The notes beneath the pieces are model-generated. The model did no database searches and was not told where the DNA came from. It was given only the letters and a program-made list of their open reading frames with translations. From the IMG/VR virus record IMGVR_UViG_3300020577_005824: a stretch of DNA of 64,000 nucleotides. One strand, given 5' to 3'. This DNA comes from an uncultured virus (IMG/VR IMGVR_UViG_3300020577_005824). Lineage: Duplodnaviria; Heunggongvirae; Uroviricota; Caudoviricetes. The position numbers and the translations under genes are program-made. Positions 1-19,669 of the stretch are shown in pieces; position 1 is the stretch's first letter, and each line of letters begins with the position of its first letter.

Positions 1-77
1 AACAAAGCACTGCCACTAACATCGGCTATATGCAATGCCTTATTTTGTGCTTCGTATTTAAGTTTTTCTATATCCAT
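1..77 (-). CDS. 5' end of a cassette ORF (MDIEKLKYEAQNKALHIADVSGSAL...), truncated by the window edge
   Basis: ATG at 77 inside attC-like site 1; frame open to position 1; not in the ORF track. Confidence 0.5.
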   Translation of the reverse strand, partial: MDIEKLKYEAQNKALHIADVSGSAL

Positions 78-144
78 AAGTTTCTACTTCGTATTAAGTT
101 TTGTGCGATTTTGTCGGCACTGCACATAGCCGTAGGCGTTATGT
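14..144. mobile_element. attC-like recombination site 1
   Basis: CACTAAC...GTTATGT ends; arms CGGCTATATGCAATGCC / GGCACTGCACATAGCCG are imperfect inverted repeats; internal near-duplication cttcgtatt(t)aagttt. Confidence 0.7.
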
Positions 145-181
145 TCAATTTTATTTTATTAATTTTTAAAAGCCTACGCAC

Positions 182-445
182 CTAAGCGTTATCTGTAGGT
201 ATATTTACCTTATTCTTATATGGGCTTTCAATTTCAAAAACAATTTCTTGCTCATTGTTATCTTCTCTAAAAGCAATTATTTGTATTCCGTATTTTCCAC
301 CACGTTCTCGCATTTCATTTTCTGCAATTTCTTTAGCTATATCAATTCCTAAGCATAAATCAACAATGTAGTTATGTGATTGTTCGCTGCTCCAACGTTT
401 AGCAATTACTATATAACTGCCTTTTTTTCTAAGTTCTTTTTCCAT
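182..445 (-). CDS. hypothetical protein (cassette A)
   Basis: 87-aa ORF between sites 1 and 2. Confidence 0.7.
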   Translation of the reverse strand: MEKELRKKGSYIVIAKRWSSEQSHNYIVDLCLGIDIAKEIAENEMRERGGKYGIQIIAFREDNNEQEIVFEIESPYKNKVNIPTDNA

Positions 446-597
446 TTTTCTAATTCTTTAATTACTTTATACCAAAAATTGCTTTTAATTCCATTCTTTT
501 CTAATTCTGAATAAACTTCTGCCGCTGTAATAAAACACGCTTTTAAATCTCCGTTATGTTTTTGCATTAATTCATATACTTTATTTTTTGCTATCAT
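409..597 (-). CDS. hypothetical protein (cassette A)
   Basis: 62-aa ORF, A-rich leader, overlaps the next gene. Confidence 0.6.
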   Translation of the reverse strand: MIAKNKVYELMQKHNGDLKACFITAAEVYSELEKNGIKSNFWYKVIKELEKWKKNLEKKAVI

Positions 598-656: not shown

Positions 657-735
657 ACATAACACCAAATTGGCACAAGGCTATTCAATCAACTAACCGC
701 TTAACGCCCTGCTGCCAATTCGGATAACGTTAGGT
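657..735. mobile_element. attC-like recombination site 2
   Basis: ACATAAC...GTTAGGT ends; arms CCAAATTGGCA / TGCCAATTCGG. Confidence 0.7.
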
Positions 736-756: not shown

Positions 757-1479
757 CTATTGAACATTTGTAGGAGAAAATTTAAAAAGTTTTTCCACCG
801 CTTTATGTGTAGCTCCATCTCTTTGACTTGCAATATTTGTTTTTACTTCTCCTTCCCATACGCAAATGAAGTCATCAGGTGCATTATACTCGCTTACAAA
901 TACTAAATTCTTTTCACTCATCTTTCTACACCAATCCCAAAATTTAGTGTGGTCAAAAGCACCTGTTTTATATGAAGTAGTGCCTTCGTATGGTGGGTCA
1001 CAATAAATCAAACAATTTTCAAAGTCTGAATACTCATCATAACTTCCGTTGATAAATCTCACGCCTTGTAAGTTTGGGCTTTGCTTTTGTGCATTTCGCT
1101 TGCCATACCCAACAAAAGTTGTTTCATCGCTTCCTTTTTCTCTTGCATATCCGTTATCAAATTTACCACCAAATGAAGCAACAAATCGCAAACAGCTTTT
1201 TATTGGTTCAGGTTCACTTTCTTTCAGTTGTTTATATTCATCTTCGGTTAATTGGTTCGGTAATTTATCAACTAAATCACGTATTGCAATCAAAGCCTCA
1301 ATAGTGTGTGCATTGTAGTCAATTCCAATCCTTTTAAAGTTATTTGGAACTTTATCAATCATATTTGCCCCACCAACAAAAGGCTCTACCCAAGTAGTAA
1401 TCCCCTTTTCATTTGCTCCTTTAACCATAATCGGTAAAACAAATTTTGCTATCCGATTTTTACTTCCCATATATTTCAT
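757..1479 (-). CDS. Dam/D12-class N6-adenine DNA methyltransferase (cassette B)
   Basis: MKYMGSK start, EPFVGG SAM-binding motif, YCDPPY catalytic motif, FVSEY. Confidence 0.92.
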   Translation of the reverse strand: MKYMGSKNRIAKFVLPIMVKGANEKGITTWVEPFVGGANMIDKVPNNFKRIGIDYNAHTIEALIAIRDLVDKLPNQLTEDEYKQLKESEPEPIKSCLRFVASFGGKFDNGYAREKGSDETTFVGYGKRNAQKQSPNLQGVRFINGSYDEYSDFENCLIYCDPPYEGTTSYKTGAFDHTKFWDWCRKMSEKNLVFVSEYNAPDDFICVWEGEVKTNIASQRDGATHKAVEKLFKFSPTNVQ

Positions 1480-1533: not shown

Positions 1534-1609
1534 AGGTAACAAGGTATATACGCAATTTTTCCACCGCTAAACCCTACGCACAACTGCGTATATACCCGAA
1601 CCGTTATCT
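1534..1609. mobile_element. attC-like recombination site 3
   Basis: AGGTAAC...GTTATCT ends; arms GGTATATACGCA / TGCGTATATACC (12-bp perfect); GTTA overlaps the TAA stop of ORF 1604-1912. Confidence 0.7.
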
Positions 1610-6918: not shown

Positions 6919-7030
6919 TGTTTTATATACCCCAAATGGGCAGGGGGATAACACCAGGTTAAACACTTGCTCGTTATTACAAGATGTTTTATATACCCCA
7001 AATGGGCAGGGGGATAACACCAGGTTAAAC
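6919..7030. repeat. two identical 46-bp direct repeats (6919-6964, 6985-7030) with a 20-bp spacer; CRISPR-repeat-like
   Basis: TGTTTTATATACCCCAAATGGGCAGGGGGATAACACCAGGTTAAAC twice. Confidence 0.9.
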
Positions 7031-8397: not shown

Positions 8398-9288
8398 TTA
8401 TTTTTTGCTTAACTCAAATTTTACATTTTCAGGTAGATAGCCTTTGTATGTTTTAGAAAATTCTAAAACCTCGTTTAATTGCTCGTCTGTTATTTTTGGC
8501 TCGTACCCTTTCCAATTAAAAGAGACCGTTTTTATATGTGAGTAATAGATATAATTATTTAAACCTATCCCACACTCTAAAATAAAAAGTTGTATACTGT
8601 AGTTGTCTTTTGCGTCCTGTAATGCTTTGTTATACTCATCTAAAATTTCGGATTTTACTTTTTGCTTTATAGCCTCGTTTTTTTCGTTTGCTCTTTCCTC
8701 CATTTTTTCGGGGGAAAAATAACCGTTTTTAACTTTTTCTGTTATATCGGTTAAATGGTTTATATCTTTAATGATAGGCTGCATTTTTGTGCTATTATCG
8801 ACAAATTTTTTTCCTGTTAATTTCTCTAGTAATTCGATACCCTCGTTTGCTTCTTTTTTCCATTTGTCAATAATTCCCATGTTAAGCAAATAATAGTTAA
8901 AAAGTTCTTTTTCCTTGCAGTGCTCTTTTAAGTAGCTTGTCTCATCTAAAGAGATACGCAAATAATTTGCTGCCACCTCAACCCCTGTAACAGTCAAATG
9001 ATACCATCCGTTGCTAATTGCATACATAGGGCACCCATTAACGTCTGATAAGTGCAACTTGTCAAATATTGCAAACTCTGGGAACTCTTTGGCTATAGTT
9101 TCGCCACAAGCACCCCCACCAATGCAGTATTTATCGATTTTTGGTTTGCCTGCCTCGTACATCATCGCTGTTATACTAAAATCATTGTGTCCGTTTTTGC
9201 AAGGGTCTGATAATCTTATTTTTATATCATAAGTTACGCCGTTTTTTGTTTTTGTTACATCATATTGTAAATAGTTTATTGTTTCCAT
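8398..9288 (-). CDS. hypothetical early protein
   Basis: 296-aa ORF starting METIN. Confidence 0.75.
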   Translation of the reverse strand: METINYLQYDVTKTKNGVTYDIKIRLSDPCKNGHNDFSITAMMYEAGKPKIDKYCIGGGACGETIAKEFPEFAIFDKLHLSDVNGCPMYAISNGWYHLTVTGVEVAANYLRISLDETSYLKEHCKEKELFNYYLLNMGIIDKWKKEANEGIELLEKLTGKKFVDNSTKMQPIIKDINHLTDITEKVKNGYFSPEKMEERANEKNEAIKQKVKSEILDEYNKALQDAKDNYSIQLFILECGIGLNNYIYYSHIKTVSFNWKGYEPKITDEQLNEVLEFSKTYKGYLPENVKFELSKK

Positions 9289-9312
9289 TTTGTTTTGTTT
9301 TTATTAGTTAAT
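9274..9312. repeat. 39-bp direct repeat, copy 1
   Basis: identical to 9835-9873. Confidence 0.9.
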
Positions 9313-9849
9313 TTCTTGTAATTCTCTTAACTCATCATCATTAAACAAGGTGCAAAGGTCGGTAAACTCTTTTTTTACTGCCTTGTATGTTTTTAAGGCT
9401 TTGCGGCTGTCCTCATCGTATCCGAAATTGACGCAAAAGTCCTCAAGTGTTCCGGGGTCGTATTTAGTAAGGCACGCTAAAACATCATAGTTTGTAGGTG
9501 CTTTTGGTAGCTCTATTTTGTCACAGTTAGCAAACTGCCAGTCACACAAAAATCTAAATTTTGCCACATCAAAACTACCGTCTTTTTTTAAATATTGGCT
9601 TTTATCAAATGTTTTAAATACTTTGCCTGTATTTCTGTTAACTATTTTTACCCCACTATTAATTAGGCTTTGCCCGAAATCTAAACTCATGCCCCTGTTA
9701 CCTCTACTGATATAAACAGAATAAATATCTCTTTTGTCTTTGTCGTCTTCAAAATGATAATCATATTTTTTAAATGTAATTTCTATTTTTGCGCCTGTTT
9801 TAGTTAAAAAGTCATTCGCTTGCTGTTCGTATGTGTTTATTGTTTCCAT
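9304..9849 (-). CDS. hypothetical early protein
   Basis: 181-aa ORF starting METIN, flanked by the 39-bp repeats. Confidence 0.75.
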   Translation of the reverse strand: METINTYEQQANDFLTKTGAKIEITFKKYDYHFEDDKDKRDIYSVYISRGNRGMSLDFGQSLINSGVKIVNRNTGKVFKTFDKSQYLKKDGSFDVAKFRFLCDWQFANCDKIELPKAPTNYDVLACLTKYDPGTLEDFCVNFGYDEDSRKALKTYKAVKKEFTDLCTLFNDDELRELQEIN

Positions 9850-9873
9850 TTTGTTTTGTTTTTATTAGTTAAT
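9835..9873. repeat. 39-bp direct repeat, copy 2
   Basis: identical to 9274-9312. Confidence 0.9.
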
Positions 9874-15929: not shown

Positions 15930-16208
15930 ATGAGTTCAGAATCAGAAAAACACAAACTAAACTTCCTAGCCATAGCCTCCGGTTGGAAGAACTATATCTT
16001 CAAATCTCCAACAATCGAAGAACTTGCCAAAACAAGAGCTAAAATATGCGCTGAATGTCCTCACTTTGATCCAAATAAACCATTTAAGAAAATAATGCCA
16101 GATAAATCAATAACGAAAATTGAAGGAGCTGGATGTGGAATATGCGGATGTCCACTTTCTGCAAAACTAAGACAAGTACTTGAAAATTGCCCAGACAAAA
16201 GATGGTAG
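15930..16208 (+). CDS. small Cys-rich Zn-binding protein
   Basis: CAECP...CGICGCP...CP..RW; TATCTTTG 5 nt upstream of the ATG. Confidence 0.75.
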   Translation: MSSESEKHKLNFLAIASGWKNYIFKSPTIEELAKTRAKICAECPHFDPNKPFKKIMPDKSITKIEGAGCGICGCPLSAKLRQVLENCPDKRW

Positions 16209-19200
16209 ACAATAACGAAAATACAGGGCCTGTTAGCAAAAACCTACGGTCTGCAATAGTACGAGAAAATCACCTCGACTTTCTACACAATCTACACTTA
16301 CAAGGAATATCTGTAGGTATCGAAAATGTTAATAAGCTAAAAGAAAATGGATACATAAAGGAAGAAGTTAAGCAAATAACTCCTCCTGTATTCACGGACA
16401 ATATTAATCCATTTCACCTAGAAAATAACACAGAAGAGCAAAAAAAGGTAGATGCTAACATCGATATCGTAATAGAATCATCTCCAGAGGTAACGCAAAA
16501 AGCTTTCGAGATATTAACAGACATTGAACTAGAACATAGACGTAAAAGCCACGACCATATATTCGAAGGACGAGATACTGAAATAAACTCAGATGAATGG
16601 AAACCTAAAAGTACCATAGACCACGAACAAGATTTCATAGATTGGATAAACTCCATAAACCAACTAGGATTTCAAAATAAAGTACGATACAAGAAATTCT
16701 CCCTATACTGCCAACAAGCATATACGTGGCTGCAAGATAAAAAATCACACTCCGACTTCCTGGACGAAGATGAACTCATAGACTACGAAGATGAAGAAAT
16801 ACGCAGGTGCAACGAAAACTCACTATACCTTCTAAACAAATACGTTTGGTATAAAGAAGGTAACGTAGAAGAAGGAAAGGTTAAGTATATAGCAGCGCCA
16901 GCACATGAAGTACTCTGTTATATGAATGACTGCGGATATTCTATTGGATTAGCTAAAGGTCGTCAGATGGCAGCAACAACAACCATCATGTCACTGAATA
17001 TGAAAGATGTTATATTCAAGAAAAATCACTTTATGAAATTCGTTACCGAAGATGACGTAAAAGCTAAAGAGATATTCGAAGATAAGCTGAAATTCGCATT
17101 CTCAGAGATGCAATGGTGGTTAAAACCTAACGTAATTAATGAACGAGATAACCTATTTGCAACTGGTACAAAACCAGAAAAAGGTACTAAGGAAGGAGCC
17201 GGAGCAAGGATACTTGTAGTAGTACCAAAAAGAACAGCTATTGCAGGTGGTGCACCTCAGAAGGTAATGATTGACGAAGCTGGGAATATTCCGGTTCTAG
17301 GAGAAATGCTTAATAACATACGCCCTACCATGTTATTCGCTGATCCTAAGACAAGGAAAATCATTGTTAAACGTATTTTATGGTTTTGGGGTTGCGTATG
17401 TGCCGGAACAAAAGTGTGGACAAATGATGGCAGGTTAATAAATATAGAAGATTTAAAACAAGAAGAAGGTATCATTGGTTTTGATAAAGAAAAAGGATTG
17501 GCATCAAAAGAAAAAATTACATACTGGCAACCTCCATTTGAAAAACCATGCTATAGAATAACTACAAATAAAGGATCTAAATTAGAATGTAGTGATAATC
17601 ATCCAATATTAGCAAGGGTAAAAAAAGAAGATGGATATTTTAAGAAAAATGATTTCGTAGAAGCTAAAGACATAAAGGTTGGAGACCATCTTTCTATAAT
17701 CGATAGTGTTGAAATTTATGGAGAAAATAAAATGTGGGAACCAAGAGTTGTTGGATGGTTAATAGGAGATGGAACTTACGGAATAGATCACTCTCCAAGA
17801 ATGGCTAATTGCGACGACGAAATAAATGAATATCTGGAGAAAAATTTAGACGCAAGAGTATTATTATCAAGACTTACAATTGACGGAAGAACATATAAAG
17901 AAATAAGACTTAAAGGTGTTTGCGGAGAATTAAGAAAGTTAGGAATATACGGACAAACAAAACTAAAAAAGACGCTTCCTATAAATTCTCATTCTTATAC
18001 AAAAAGTGATATATGCGAACTTCTTGGAGGCATATTTGATACAGATGGATGCGTTCACTATAAAGAAAAAAGTACAAAACAAATAGACTTAACATCAAGC
18101 TCTGAAGCATTATTGACAGAGATTAAATTATTACTTATAAAACTTGGAATACACTGCAATATATCAAGAATAAAAGCCAATACATTAACAAACAAAAGAG
18201 ATAAAAACGATTGGTTTGTTTTATATATAGCAGATTCAAGAAGTATAAATAAATTTTACGAAAACATATCTTTTAAAATAAAATACAAGCAAGAAAGACT
18301 TGAAAGTATAGTAGAATCAATAAAATTAAGAAGAAGAAAAGTAGTTAAAGGAAGCGAAGGACTTAGATTTGAAACTGTAGTAAACGTAGAATATATTGGC
18401 ATAAAACCAGTATATAATTTAACAGCAGGTACCACTCACACATATATTGCAAACGGAATTGTAACTCACAATACCGGAGGACAGATGGAAAAAGGAGGTA
18501 AGTCATTCGAAGTAGAACTACTATCTCTATTCAAGCAATGGAACGAAGGAAACTACGGATCAGGAATAATACCTATATTCTTCAACTGGACATGCAGACC
18601 ATACGCTACTCAAGCAGATTACGACAGAGAAAGATTAATAGCGTACTCTAAATTAAATCAAGATGAAATAGAAGGACAAAAGGCAGTTACTGAGTTTCAC
18701 CAAACGTGGCCAAACAGCCTTTCAGATGTATTCATGGGGTCATCAAAAACGCTCGTGTCATCAGAATACATAGATAAAGCTTTACAGAGAATACAAAAGG
18801 CAAAAAAAGAACATAACTACCAACTTCACCAATCTGGATTTTTTGAGCCTATATTTGACTTTAATACTCCTACAGCAGAAGGTGCACACCAACCATATAA
18901 AATAATAGGAGCTAACTTCATACCTACATCAGACATCGACTCGCGCGCATCAACGACAATATTCATGCAGCCAGATAAAACGTGGCAAAATAGATACTTC
19001 AAAGGAACTGACCCTATCGATACAGACACCGGTTTATCAAACTTCGCATCTACAGTTTGGGATAAATGGTTTAAAACGCCAGTGGCAATTATGAACTGGC
19101 GTACACGAGACTATAAAGACGCTTTCATGCAATCTTTATTACTAAATCTATATTATGACACCTCAAAAGAACAAGAAGGAGTCTGGGAGCTTGTAGAGAG

Positions 19201-19669
19201 TAACAGAGGTACTTCATATACTCAGTATGTGGAAAATGCAGGATATGGTAAAAAATTCGTGTTAAACTACCAACTTCCACACGCTATACAAAACAGAACT
19301 ACAATAAATGAAGGTGTGGGGATAGATAATAAAGGAGTGAGAAATACCATGATCATAAACCATCTTCATAGTATGCTATCAGCATACGGAGATAAGATTT
19401 ATCTTGATATTATATTTGAGCAACTTAAAACTTTTGTTTGTAATGTTTCGGATAAAGGAAAAGAAATGTGGGGGCCAATGAACAAAAAGTATTTTAAAGA
19501 TGATACTTTATTCTCAACGGTTTTTTCATATATTTGTGCTGAACTATGTTTTTACGACACCGAACCAATTAATACTTTGAAGAAATCAAATGGATTCAGA
19601 ATAGAATACAAAATAGACTACGACAAGGATTATAGGCTAGTAAGAAGACCAATAAAAGTAGCTAACTGA
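16202..19669 (+). CDS. terL: terminase large subunit, intein-containing
   Basis: Walker A-like KGRQMAATT, Walker B VMIDEAG, G|TGG coupling motif, RNase H-like GTDPID...ESN...DD; lies before the portal. Confidence 0.9.
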   Translation: MVDNNENTGPVSKNLRSAIVRENHLDFLHNLHLQGISVGIENVNKLKENGYIKEEVKQITPPVFTDNINPFHLENNTEEQKKVDANIDIVIESSPEVTQKAFEILTDIELEHRRKSHDHIFEGRDTEINSDEWKPKSTIDHEQDFIDWINSINQLGFQNKVRYKKFSLYCQQAYTWLQDKKSHSDFLDEDELIDYEDEEIRRCNENSLYLLNKYVWYKEGNVEEGKVKYIAAPAHEVLCYMNDCGYSIGLAKGRQMAATTTIMSLNMKDVIFKKNHFMKFVTEDDVKAKEIFEDKLKFAFSEMQWWLKPNVINERDNLFATGTKPEKGTKEGAGARILVVVPKRTAIAGGAPQKVMIDEAGNIPVLGEMLNNIRPTMLFADPKTRKIIVKRILWFWGCVCAGTKVWTNDGRLINIEDLKQEEGIIGFDKEKGLASKEKITYWQPPFEKPCYRITTNKGSKLECSDNHPILARVKKEDGYFKKNDFVEAKDIKVGDHLSIIDSVEIYGENKMWEPRVVGWLIGDGTYGIDHSPRMANCDDEINEYLEKNLDARVLLSRLTIDGRTYKEIRLKGVCGELRKLGIYGQTKLKKTLPINSHSYTKSDICELLGGIFDTDGCVHYKEKSTKQIDLTSSSEALLTEIKLLLIKLGIHCNISRIKANTLTNKRDKNDWFVLYIADSRSINKFYENISFKIKYKQERLESIVESIKLRRRKVVKGSEGLRFETVVNVEYIGIKPVYNLTAGTTHTYIANGIVTHNTGGQMEKGGKSFEVELLSLFKQWNEGNYGSGIIPIFFNWTCRPYATQADYDRERLIAYSKLNQDEIEGQKAVTEFHQTWPNSLSDVFMGSSKTLVSSEYIDKALQRIQKAKKEHNYQLHQSGFFEPIFDFNTPTAEGAHQPYKIIGANFIPTSDIDSRASTTIFMQPDKTWQNRYFKGTDPIDTDTGLSNFASTVWDKWFKTPVAIMNWRTRDYKDAFMQSLLLNLYYDTSKEQEGVWELVESNRGTSYTQYVENAGYGKKFVLNYQLPHAIQNRTTINEGVGIDNKGVRNTMIINHLHSMLSAYGDKIYLDIIFEQLKTFVCNVSDKGKEMWGPMNKKYFKDDTLFSTVFSYICAELCFYDTEPINTLKKSNGFRIEYKIDYDKDYRLVRRPIKVAN
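17393..18472 (+). mobile_element. 360-aa intein with LAGLIDADG homing endonuclease
   Basis: C1 CVCAGTKV, block B SDNHPI, VVGWLIGDG and LLGGIFDTDG, VYNL...NGIVTHN|T. Confidence 0.93.

What the first reader, a model, noticed from the sequence alone, without database searches (positions are those of the whole stretch)
1..144. attC-like site supplies the start codon and N-terminal peptide of the next cassette gene
Seen: on the minus strand an ATG at 77 lies in the loop of site 1. It reads MDIEKLKYEAQNKALHIADVSGSAL through the arm and across the core (GAT GTT AGT = DVS). Inference: recombination at the core would swap N-termini and translation starts, so the site may act as a portable expression module that fuses to the incoming cassette ORF.
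Basis: partly seen in the sequence, partly recalled or inferred. Interest (0 to 1): 0.75.

Follow-up and report, generated by a model that had tools for sequence, protein, structure and literature searches.

The report
Phage recombination hairpin starts methylase gene
In this phage an integron-like DNA hairpin contains an ATG and 19 codons that read in frame into a DNA-methylase-type gene start and likely serve as that gene's translation start; related phages show such hairpins usually staying with their gene but sometimes sitting on unrelated genes, so the element likely works both as a gene-shuffling site and as a swappable protein start.

Summary
A 123-bp hairpin (18-140, minus strand) carries an ATG at 77 that reads MDIEKLKYEAQNKALHIAD|VSGSAL through the GTT core to the contig edge. 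All 48 other copies of the edge 21-mer continue as a beta-class DNA methyltransferase, and near-identical sites head complete 258-268 aa methylases. In-site ATGs of this family have the Bacteroidota initiation signature. The site belongs to a phage-borne integron-like array beside a short tyrosine recombinase lacking the IntI-specific insertion. The routine junction is the far core (138-140), so site and gene normally stay together as an inverted cassette: copies of one site share their upstream neighbour in 4 of 727 pairs and their downstream gene in 608. The near core is a second, slower junction: 21 leader families sit on shared gene bodies, with identity switching at GTT, and this leader also heads unrelated genes. 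All three frames occur. Recombination and translation were not shown experimentally. The scan has reported this theme before on other DNA (at least 8 notes). My 10 paper searches found only a hairpin of this family listed as a phage attC.

The parts
18..140 (-). Site 1: 123-bp asymmetric attC-like hairpin (AAC, 5-nt spacer, arm, 76-nt loop, arm, 2-nt spacer, GTT), long 'type A' family
   Evidence: 17 members of this family among the fetched loci
138..140 (-). Far core (AAC on the gene strand); inferred routine crossover, where the cassette meets its changing upstream neighbour
   Evidence: conservation among copies starts at T-AAC; far flank shared in 4 of 727 same-site pairs
116..132 (-). Far arm of the hairpin
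   Evidence: pairs with 23-39
75..97 (-). ATG (77-75) and A-rich initiation region without a Shine-Dalgarno motif (A at -6, -11, -12; not at -3 or -13)
   Evidence: Bacteroidota rule from PMC6847099 passages
21..77 (-). Leader of 19 codons, MDIEKLKYEAQNKALHIAD; the last six codons run through the near arm (39-23)
   Evidence: low model confidence for residues 1-20 in a relative; pN/pS about 0.8, no stops
18..20 (-). Near core GTT (Val codon); second, slower junction at which leaders and gene bodies are exchanged
1..20 (-). Start of the gene body (VSGSAL...), cut by the contig end. Bases 1-21 equal contig 67651-67671, the start of an N6/N4 methyltransferase body (ORF at contig 66930-67745, beyond the window) next to a tyrosine recombinase (contig 66033-66866)
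   Evidence: 48 of 48 other copies of the 21-mer continue as this methylase start
182..597 (-). Two small ORFs (62 aa at 409-597, 87 aa at 182-445) forming the body of the neighbouring cassette; no family hits
661..731 (-). Short hairpin site of the same polarity (spacers 5/1)
   Evidence: (z -3.85)
757..1479 (-). Dam-like (D12 class) adenine methyltransferase cassette with its own ATG downstream of its site
1538..1605 (-). Short hairpin site at the outer edge of the array; its TAA is the stop codon of the 102-aa ORF 1604-1912

Best explanation
Bases 18-140 are an attC-like hairpin whose loop holds an in-frame ATG and 19 codons that likely start a beta-class DNA methyltransferase gene, and hairpin plus gene most likely form one inverted cassette of a phage integron-like array shuffled by the neighbouring short tyrosine recombinase. 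Step 1 (shown by comparison): copies of a site almost always differ beyond the far AAC core, so the routine crossover is inferred there and the site travels with the gene it starts. Step 2 (inferred): because the gene points away from its own site, the A-rich loop lies at the 5' end of the mRNA segment and has been taken over as the initiation region. The gene body has no usable start of its own. Step 3 (junction shown, enzyme inferred): less often the near GTT core is the junction, which replaces the site, start signal and leader in front of an unchanged body. The likeliest cause is recombination of the other hairpin strand. Only swaps that keep the frame would survive in front of start-less bodies. 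The leader peptide itself looks dispensable, so a swap would mainly change how strongly the gene is translated, not what the protein does.
For: Gene continuation: 48 of 48 other hits of the edge 21-mer continue as VSGSALFNADC. Closest site copies (138 of 141 nt) head a complete 264-aa ORF (L220) or a cut one (L224). 37 of 50 methylase loci examined (of 54 found) have an ATG-started leader joined in frame at the core, 1 is cut and 12 are distant homologues without it. Start use: read-through ATGs have A at -11/-12/-13 in 0.70/0.78/0.71 of 63 cases, like this genome's ORF starts (0.69/0.75/0.59, n=59) and unlike controls (0.31-0.36). The next Met lies after predicted strand 23-27 and the nearly invariant D29, a stretch that aligns with CcrM and M.MboIIA. 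Read-through is seen in 62 of 154 unique site-gene pairs versus 30.6 +/- 4.0 after random re-pairing (maximum 46 in 5000). Far-core junction: same-site pairs share the far flank in 4 of 727 and the gene-side flank in 608 of 727; without methylase-found loci, 2 and 205 of 284. Per family, the share of pairs with the same partner is 0.01 (far) versus 0.37 (gene side), over 34 site families. The gene strand folds more stably in 141 of 154 sites. In bacterial integrase loci genes mostly lie the other way round (26 of 38 sites, versus 18 of 222 in phage-like loci). Near-core junction: 21 leader families; three body starts each carry 7 families and this leader sits on 5 body starts. Identity jumps from about 0.2-0.5 to 1.0 at the core. 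Leader type is random on a quick tree of 50 methylase bodies (22 changes; shuffled mean 21.8). Circular-cassette footprint: a gene start matches its own gene end better than the preceding one in 81 versus 7 of 100 adjacent pairs.
Against: No recombination or translation was observed directly. The ORF is cut at 25 codons in this assembly, and the laid contigs do not bridge the gap. Site 1's own context lacks A at -3 and -13, and A at -3 is only 0.44 among read-through starts versus 0.69 for genome ORF starts. An in-frame TTG lies 15 nt after the core in the commonest allele. The first ~100 nt of the methylase are highly conserved among bodies, so homologous recombination there could explain most of the shuffling on the tree. 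The tree is the quick version with long-branch warnings. Loci fetched by gene-body search inflate gene-side linkage. The recombinase lacks the IntI insertion thought necessary for hairpin recombination. A hairpin of this family was the one site of six that class 1 IntI did not recombine (PMC9892861).
Confidence: 0.65

Rival explanations
1. The start-codon role and the far-core shuffling are right, but leaders change without any recombinase action at the near core. They are fixed when a cassette is first made, or are exchanged by homologous or microhomology recombination in the conserved bases next to GTT.
For: The first ~100 nt after the core are nearly the same across very different methylase bodies. 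Leaders A and B share about 16 nt of arm just before the core. Many sites are followed by similar 8-12 nt after GTT.
Against: Leaders with unrelated arms meet one body at exactly GTT (identity 0.19-0.23 at -3/-2, 1.0 from -1; 26 pairs). One leader meets unrelated bodies with identity collapsing 4-5 nt after the G. Reciprocal combinations exist: B and MIDRITEQ-type leaders both sit on VSGSALF and VMCRAV bodies, and B and MLKLP-type leaders both sit on VSGSALF and VVCSTF bodies.
Confidence: 0.2
2. One reading: the near core is the main crossover, the site belongs to the upstream cassette, and it donates its start and leader to whatever cassette follows.
For: Leader and body combine freely at GTT. 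Core complementarity fits either polarity.
Against: No site family of 34 keeps a single far flank, and only 2 of 21 gene-end families keep a single site. Real pairs are frame-matched twice as often as random pairs, and all three frames are used. Next to the integrase the array ends in a bare AAC half-core, which fits far-core insertion.
Confidence: 0.06
3. The open frame through the arm is incidental, and the methylase starts at the TTG 15 nt after the core or at the internal Met.
For: The leader evolves near neutrally (pN/pS 0.82 and 0.99 on 11 and 20 variants) and is predicted with low confidence. An ATG open to the core is common in such loops (118 of 154 phage sites, 19 of 36 bacterial sites).
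Against: The TTG is TTA or absent in other alleles that keep the leader. There are no stops in 30 distinct leaders, and the ATG-to-core distance is always a multiple of three (57, 60, 72, 75) while the distance upstream of the ATG varies. The initiation signature marks read-through ATGs and not the others. The internal Met loses D29.
Confidence: 0.06
4. The contig edge is an assembly artefact, and in this genome the frame does not continue into a gene.
For: Both contig ends lie in sequence shared by many phages in the same samples, and the contig is not closed.
Against: 48 of 48 other copies continue as a methylase start. A protein in the same 90% cluster as this genome's methylase begins with almost this leader (P0014).
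Confidence: 0.03

Closest known systems
Integrons (IntI, attI, attC cassettes)
   Same: Tyrosine recombinase beside an array of hairpin-bounded cassettes; invariant AAC/GTT core; circular-cassette complementarity; one strand folds better. PMC5027507 (passages) places cleavage in the 5'-AAC-3' of the recombining strand and shows rarer recombination of the other strand at the other core.
   Different: Recombinase is 277 aa, below the TIGR02249 cut-off (183 versus 265 bits) and about 43 aa shorter than IntI4 where the IntI insertion lies. Spacers are asymmetric (5-6 versus 1-3 nt). Phage genes point away from their own site and towards the integrase, and many start inside the site.
Phage-borne CALINs, especially Polaribacter phage P12002L (PMC9892861; parts 2-4 of 7 and supplement file 1 part 1 of 2 read)
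   Same: P12002L_attC1 has the same 5/2 spacer shape and the same far-arm start as sites related to site 1. The cassettes there also carry DNA methyltransferases.
   Different: Treated there as ordinary attC sites without an integrase. In the parts read there is no cognate short recombinase, no inverted-cassette model and no in-site start codon. attC1 was the one site of six that IntI1 did not recombine with attI1.
ORF-11, ORF-17 and ORF-18 of attI1; fused cassettes such as gcuF1-blaOXA-28 (review PMC8876359, passages)
   Same: A recombination site supplies translation signals to cassettes that lack them, and the reading crosses the crossover core.
   Different: Those ORFs lie in the single attI site and act mostly by translational coupling on the first cassette. 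Here each long attC-like site carries its own start and a leader fused in frame to the body.
Synthetic attC sites embedded in protein linkers (PMC7439510, passages)
   Same: One sequence is both a hairpin recombination site and protein-coding; proposed there for module shuffling.
   Different: Those are engineered. This would be a natural case, limited to N-terminal leaders.
Beta-class DNA methyltransferases (M.MboIIA, CcrM, M.RsrI)
   Same: Fold and motif order of the gene body.
   Different: The N-terminal 14-25 residues come from the hairpin and vary between near-identical bodies.

Membership tests
Integron (IntI/attI/attC) | Tyrosine recombinase gene next to the array | tested here: met
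   Contig 66033-66866, PF00589 + PF13495, catalytic motifs visible. 30 of 31 sites in viral integrase loci have the same polarity as here.
Integron (IntI/attI/attC) | Integrase passes the IntI family model | tested here: not met
   TIGR02249 183.4 bits, cut-off 265; best model is NF040815 at 225.7 (cut-off 220).
Integron (IntI/attI/attC) | IntI-specific insertion (I2 region) in the catalytic domain | tested here: not met
   32 residues between the two aligned blocks versus 75 in IntI4 (2a3v). I2 is described in PMC4792948; PMC8138268 says the insertion is not fully conserved in its integron-like subgroup.
Integron (IntI/attI/attC) | Cassette sites are imperfect hairpins with an AAC/GTT core | tested here: met
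   5 sites in the contig; 322 in fetched loci.
Integron (IntI/attI/attC) | Canonical attC geometry (near-equal spacers on both sides, extrahelical bases) | tested here: not met
   Spacer lengths differ by 2-4 nt in 300 of 322 sites. The aadA7 and PH101 sites look near-equal (compared by eye). Extrahelical bases were not scored.
Integron (IntI/attI/attC) | Footprint of circular cassettes (own ends complementary) | tested here: met
   5.6 versus 3.3 of 8 nt; 81 versus 7 of 100 adjacent pairs.
Integron (IntI/attI/attC) | attI site beside the integrase gene | tested here: inconclusive
   A bare AAC half-core followed by about 50 AT-rich bases precedes the integrase start in this genome and most of 11 viral loci inspected by eye; function untested.
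Integron (IntI/attI/attC) | Cassette gene reads towards its own attC | tested here: not met
   Phage-like loci: 190 of 222 sites have the gene reading away from the short-spacer core. Bacterial loci mostly show the canonical direction (26 of 38).
Integron (IntI/attI/attC) | Single-strand hairpin recombination by the cognate integrase | not testable with these tools
   Only indirect: one strand folds better in 141 of 154 phage and 32 of 36 bacterial sites.
Beta-class N6/N4 DNA methyltransferase (gene body) | PF01555 above cut-off; catalytic motif N-terminal and SAM-binding motif C-terminal; matching fold | tested here: met
   Tested on the copy at contig 66930-67745 and on P0014, not on the cut ORF itself: 108.6 bits versus 26.7; alignments; Foldseek to 1g60 E 5e-18.
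ORF-11-type translational coupling in attI1 | Short ORF ends at a stop in or near the core, followed by re-initiation | tested here: not met
   The frame stays open through the core into the body. One fetched type B case does stop after six codons (L127).

The most novel reading that the evidence does not exclude
A phage-borne, I2-less integron-like recombinase uses both cores of an asymmetric hairpin: the far core to move whole cassettes, and the near core to exchange initiation regions and N-terminal leaders between unrelated genes. This would be a natural, site-specific protein-start shuffling device that retunes methylase expression. The 21-bp overlap at this contig's start would then be a snapshot of two such forms in one population.
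Probability: 0.4. Interest if true: 0.85.

Novelty: new variant of a known kind. Interest (0 to 1): 0.7.

Why it matters
Integron cassettes are normally promoterless genes that end at their attC site, and the IntI insertion is thought to be needed to recombine hairpins. Here a widespread system in phages and Bacteroidota genomes has the cassette logic with a shorter recombinase and a different site shape. In the phages the genes are inverted, so the recombination site doubles as ribosome entry point and protein N-terminus. If the recombinase acts at both cores, it gives a directly testable natural case of site-specific fusion of protein starts, and a living model for the proposed Xer-to-IntI transition. 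It may also bear on how cassettes acquire their sites, which I recall as an open question. It would explain the odd variable N-termini on many phage methylases. The same sites lie beside resistance genes in bacterial loci, so the system may matter for gene flow in a phylum where standard tools report few integrons (PMC9024848 passages).

Tried and rejected
Closing the contig: no terminal repeat, and the last bases match nowhere else. Laid contigs of X1, X2, X4 and X5 do not bridge position 1, and X1 shows no listed join across the gap; X1 may be the source sample. Whether site 1 heads a second methylase copy in the gap or the copy at 67650 in another form stays open: 0 of 36 methylase loci and 3 of 95 records hold two such starts, which leans to two forms but does not decide. 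Rfam: no match in the contig's far end, and 3 sub-threshold matches in two other loci. blastn of window 1-200 against annotated phages: no match. Generic repeat finder and RYYYAAC count: uninformative (127 versus 135 expected). Sigma-70 and TANNTTTG promoter scans gave nothing usable. Folding z-score of site 1 alone is not significant. pN/pS of leaders shows no selection on the peptide. The third filter row ('excluding VSGSALF-type') was mis-indexed and is not used. The careful tree did not finish, so only the quick tree is cited. The site detector missed some real sites (for example L321, and P12002L_attC1), so 'no site' rows are not absences. Fixed-frame fusion device: rejected, all three frames occur. 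Paper searches found no description of this system or of starts inside such sites. The library lacks most subscription papers, bioRxiv supplements were not available, and the GenBank annotation file of PMC9892861 was not seen.

Full report
1. Observation. The minus strand from 77 to 3 reads MDIEKLKYEAQNKALHIADVSGSAL with no stop. The ATG lies in the 76-nt loop of a hairpin: AAC at 140-138, 5-nt spacer, arm 132-116, loop, arm 39-23, 2-nt spacer, GTT at 20-18. Site 1 alone folds no better than shuffles (z -1.37). A detector for core plus asymmetric stem finds 5 such sites in the contig (18-140, 661-731, 1538-1605, 67668-67790, 68082-68167) against 0-1 in each of 20 shuffles.

2. Setting. The window is the first 64 kb of a single 68,372-bp contig with portal, capsid-like and intein-bearing genes, so it is a phage. 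A Bacteroidota host is inferred from the best genome hits of its recombinase and from its start-codon contexts. The contig is not closed, but bases 1-21 equal 67651-67671 exactly. That stretch is the core and first codons of an N6/N4 methyltransferase body (66930-67745, minus), which there carries another hairpin and another leader, MNIAQKIIEAHKLKFGSLPPLQQCS. Directly downstream lies a 277-aa tyrosine recombinase (66033-66866). The sites at both contig ends most likely form one array, broken in sequence that many phages share.

3. Does the ORF continue? Not visible in this assembly. Elsewhere, 48 of 48 hits of the exact edge 21-mer (locus records, some duplicated) continue as VSGSALFNADC. The closest copies of window 1-141 (138 of 141 nt) head a complete 264-aa ORF (L220) or one cut by the locus end (L224). 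Most complete relatives are 230-268 aa, one stops at 120 aa and one unrelated body gives 72 aa. Of 54 methylase loci found I examined 50: 37 have an ATG-started leader in frame at the core, 1 is cut and 12 are distant homologues without it. Loose ends in X2, X4 and X5 also run into methylase-like codons. Whether site 1 heads a second copy in the gap or the 67650 copy in another form of the array is open.

4. Is the loop ATG the start? Indirect evidence says yes. Among 154 unique phage-like site-gene pairs, 62 read from an in-site ATG at least 45 codons past the core (59 of 101 long sites, 3 of 53 short). Random re-pairing gives 30.6 +/- 4.0. These ATGs have A at -11/-12/-13 in 0.70/0.78/0.71 of 63 cases and an SD-like motif in 1, like the genome's own ORF starts and unlike other in-site ATGs or internal Met codons (0.31-0.36). 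This matches the Bacteroidota rule in PMC6847099 (abstract and passages). A at -3 is weaker (0.44 versus 0.69), and site 1 has A at -6, -11 and -12 only. In a model of P0014, a relative with almost this leader, residues 1-20 have pLDDT 56-65 and residues 21-40 have 90-95. The first internal Met follows strand 23-27 and the nearly invariant D29, and that stretch aligns with CcrM and M.MboIIA. An in-frame TTG at +15 exists in the commonest allele but is TTA or absent in others. Leaders have no stops and a fixed multiple-of-three distance to the core, but pN/pS near 1 on few variants: the frame appears to be kept, the peptide sequence not.

5. Which core is the crossover? The sites are polar: spacers differ by 2-4 nt in 300 of 322. 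In phage-like loci the gene reads away from the short-spacer core in 190 of 222 sites. In bacterial integrase loci it mostly lies the other way (26 of 38), ending at its site as in ordinary integrons. Copies of one site family share the far flank in 4 of 727 pairs and the gene-side flank in 608; leaving out methylase-found loci gives 2 and 205 of 284. Weighted by family on the larger set, the share of pairs with the same partner is 0.01 for site-to-far and 0.37 for site-to-gene (34 families), and 0.12 for gene-end-to-site and 0.45 for gene-start-to-site (21 and 18 families). Conservation among copies begins at T-AAC of the far core. The gene strand folds better in 141 of 154 sites, and the array ends beside the integrase in a bare AAC half-core. 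All of this fits cleavage in the 5'-AAC-3' of the gene strand at the far core, the counterpart of the attC bottom strand (PMC5027507 passages). Site 1 and its methylase are thus one inverted cassette.

6. The near core is also a junction. Fourteen members fetched from the 73-member 90% cluster of this genome's methylase carry four different leaders: 11 of the type at 67745, and one each of three others, including one nearly identical to site 1's. Across fetched loci there are 21 leader families. The VSGSALF, VSGCSS and VMCRAV body starts each carry 7, and site 1's leader family sits on 5 body starts, two of them with no likeness to the others past the core (a 210-aa and a 53-aa ORF). Homologues of the 210-aa body without a detected site start with their own Met (18 of 19 loci examined). 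For one body with different leaders, identity is 0.19-0.48 at -3/-2 and 1.0 from the core on (376 and 26 pairs). For one leader with different bodies it falls 4-5 nt after the G (35 and 108 pairs). Leader type is unrelated to a quick tree of 50 bodies (22 changes, shuffled mean 21.8), though homologous recombination in the conserved first 100 nt can produce that part. All three frames are used across the family (29/18/16), so there is no universal register; matching appears to be by selection. The simplest cause of near-core exchange is occasional recombination of the other strand, which is known at low rates for IntI1. An enzyme without the IntI insertion might be less selective (inference). 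Cassette birth or microhomology recombination remain possible.

7. Comparison with what is known. It works like an integron but fails membership on the IntI model (183 versus 265 bits), the I2-region insertion (32 versus 75 residues against IntI4), spacer geometry and gene direction. PMC9892861 (parts 2-4 of 7 and supplement 1 part 1 of 2) lists a hairpin of this shape in Polaribacter phage P12002L as attC1, in a cluster with methylase genes; it was the only one of six sites that IntI1 did not recombine. My detector finds further sites of this polarity in P12002L and in Polaribacter phage Leef_1, which has a related integrase. Translation help from recombination sites is known for ORF-11/17/18 of attI1 (PMC8876359 passages), and protein-coding attC sites have been engineered (PMC7439510 passages). 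Ten searches returned no paper on this system, within the limits of the library. PMC9024848, PMC4792948 and PMC8138268 were read as passages only; all other titles were seen only as search listings.

8. Earlier notes of this scan. The array and in-site starts were noted before in this and other genomes. They are unchecked AI notes and are not counted as support; one gave the lead to PMC9892861.

9. Verdict. A real feature and a new variant of the integron kind. Sequence-level facts are shown. Translation from the loop ATG is strongly inferred, the far-core crossover is strongly inferred, and recombinase-driven leader swapping at the near core is plausible but unproven. Interest 0.7.

Noticed in passing
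L295:2833-4923; L247:5966-6736: In bacterial integrase loci the same hairpins lie beside resistance genes: a Lnu(H)-like nucleotidyltransferase (below cut-off) between a site and the integrase or another site, and Tet(X) next to a site, with a CatB gene nearby.
   Followed up: partly
window 146-171 and 607-632: Inverted repeats flank the 62-aa and 87-aa ORFs, and one X4 contig joins 181 to 606. An ORF-less hairpin cassette may exist into which the two ORFs were inserted.
   Followed up: no
window 775-793 and 1485-1503: An inverted repeat brackets the Dam-like methylase ORF, one copy inside its 3' end; these stretches are high-depth in other metagenomes.
   Followed up: no
window 104 and 1521 (run X1): One contig joins site 1's loop sequence directly to the start of the cassette at 1521-1540, so loop sequences also occur as 5' leaders outside complete hairpins.
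   Followed up: no
L001:3368-3420 (contig 66867-66919): attI-like stretch: the last cassette ends in AAC about 50 AT-rich bases before the integrase start; similar in most of 11 viral loci.
   Followed up: partly
L306 (P12002L) and L305 (Leef_1): Cultured Polaribacter phages carry sites of this polarity, one with read-through in Leef_1 and one before a Mom-like gene in P12002L; they are possible experimental systems.
   Followed up: partly
L088, L089: Site-1-like methylase cassettes occur on contigs in genomes labelled Saccharimonadales and Mollicutes; possibly mis-binned phage contigs.
   Followed up: no
L012:4603-5377: A type B methylase cassette is split into two overlapping ORFs.
   Followed up: no
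window 16202-19669: The 1155-aa ORF upstream of the portal gene carries an intein with a LAGLIDADG domain.
   Followed up: no
window 6919-7030; 9274-9312 and 9835-9873: Exact 46-nt direct repeat at 66-nt spacing, and an exact 39-nt repeat at two gene starts.
   Followed up: no
L001:4718-4873 (contig 68217-68372): The other contig end cuts a third methyltransferase cassette (phrog_799), so at least four methylase genes or gene parts lie in this array.
   Followed up: partly
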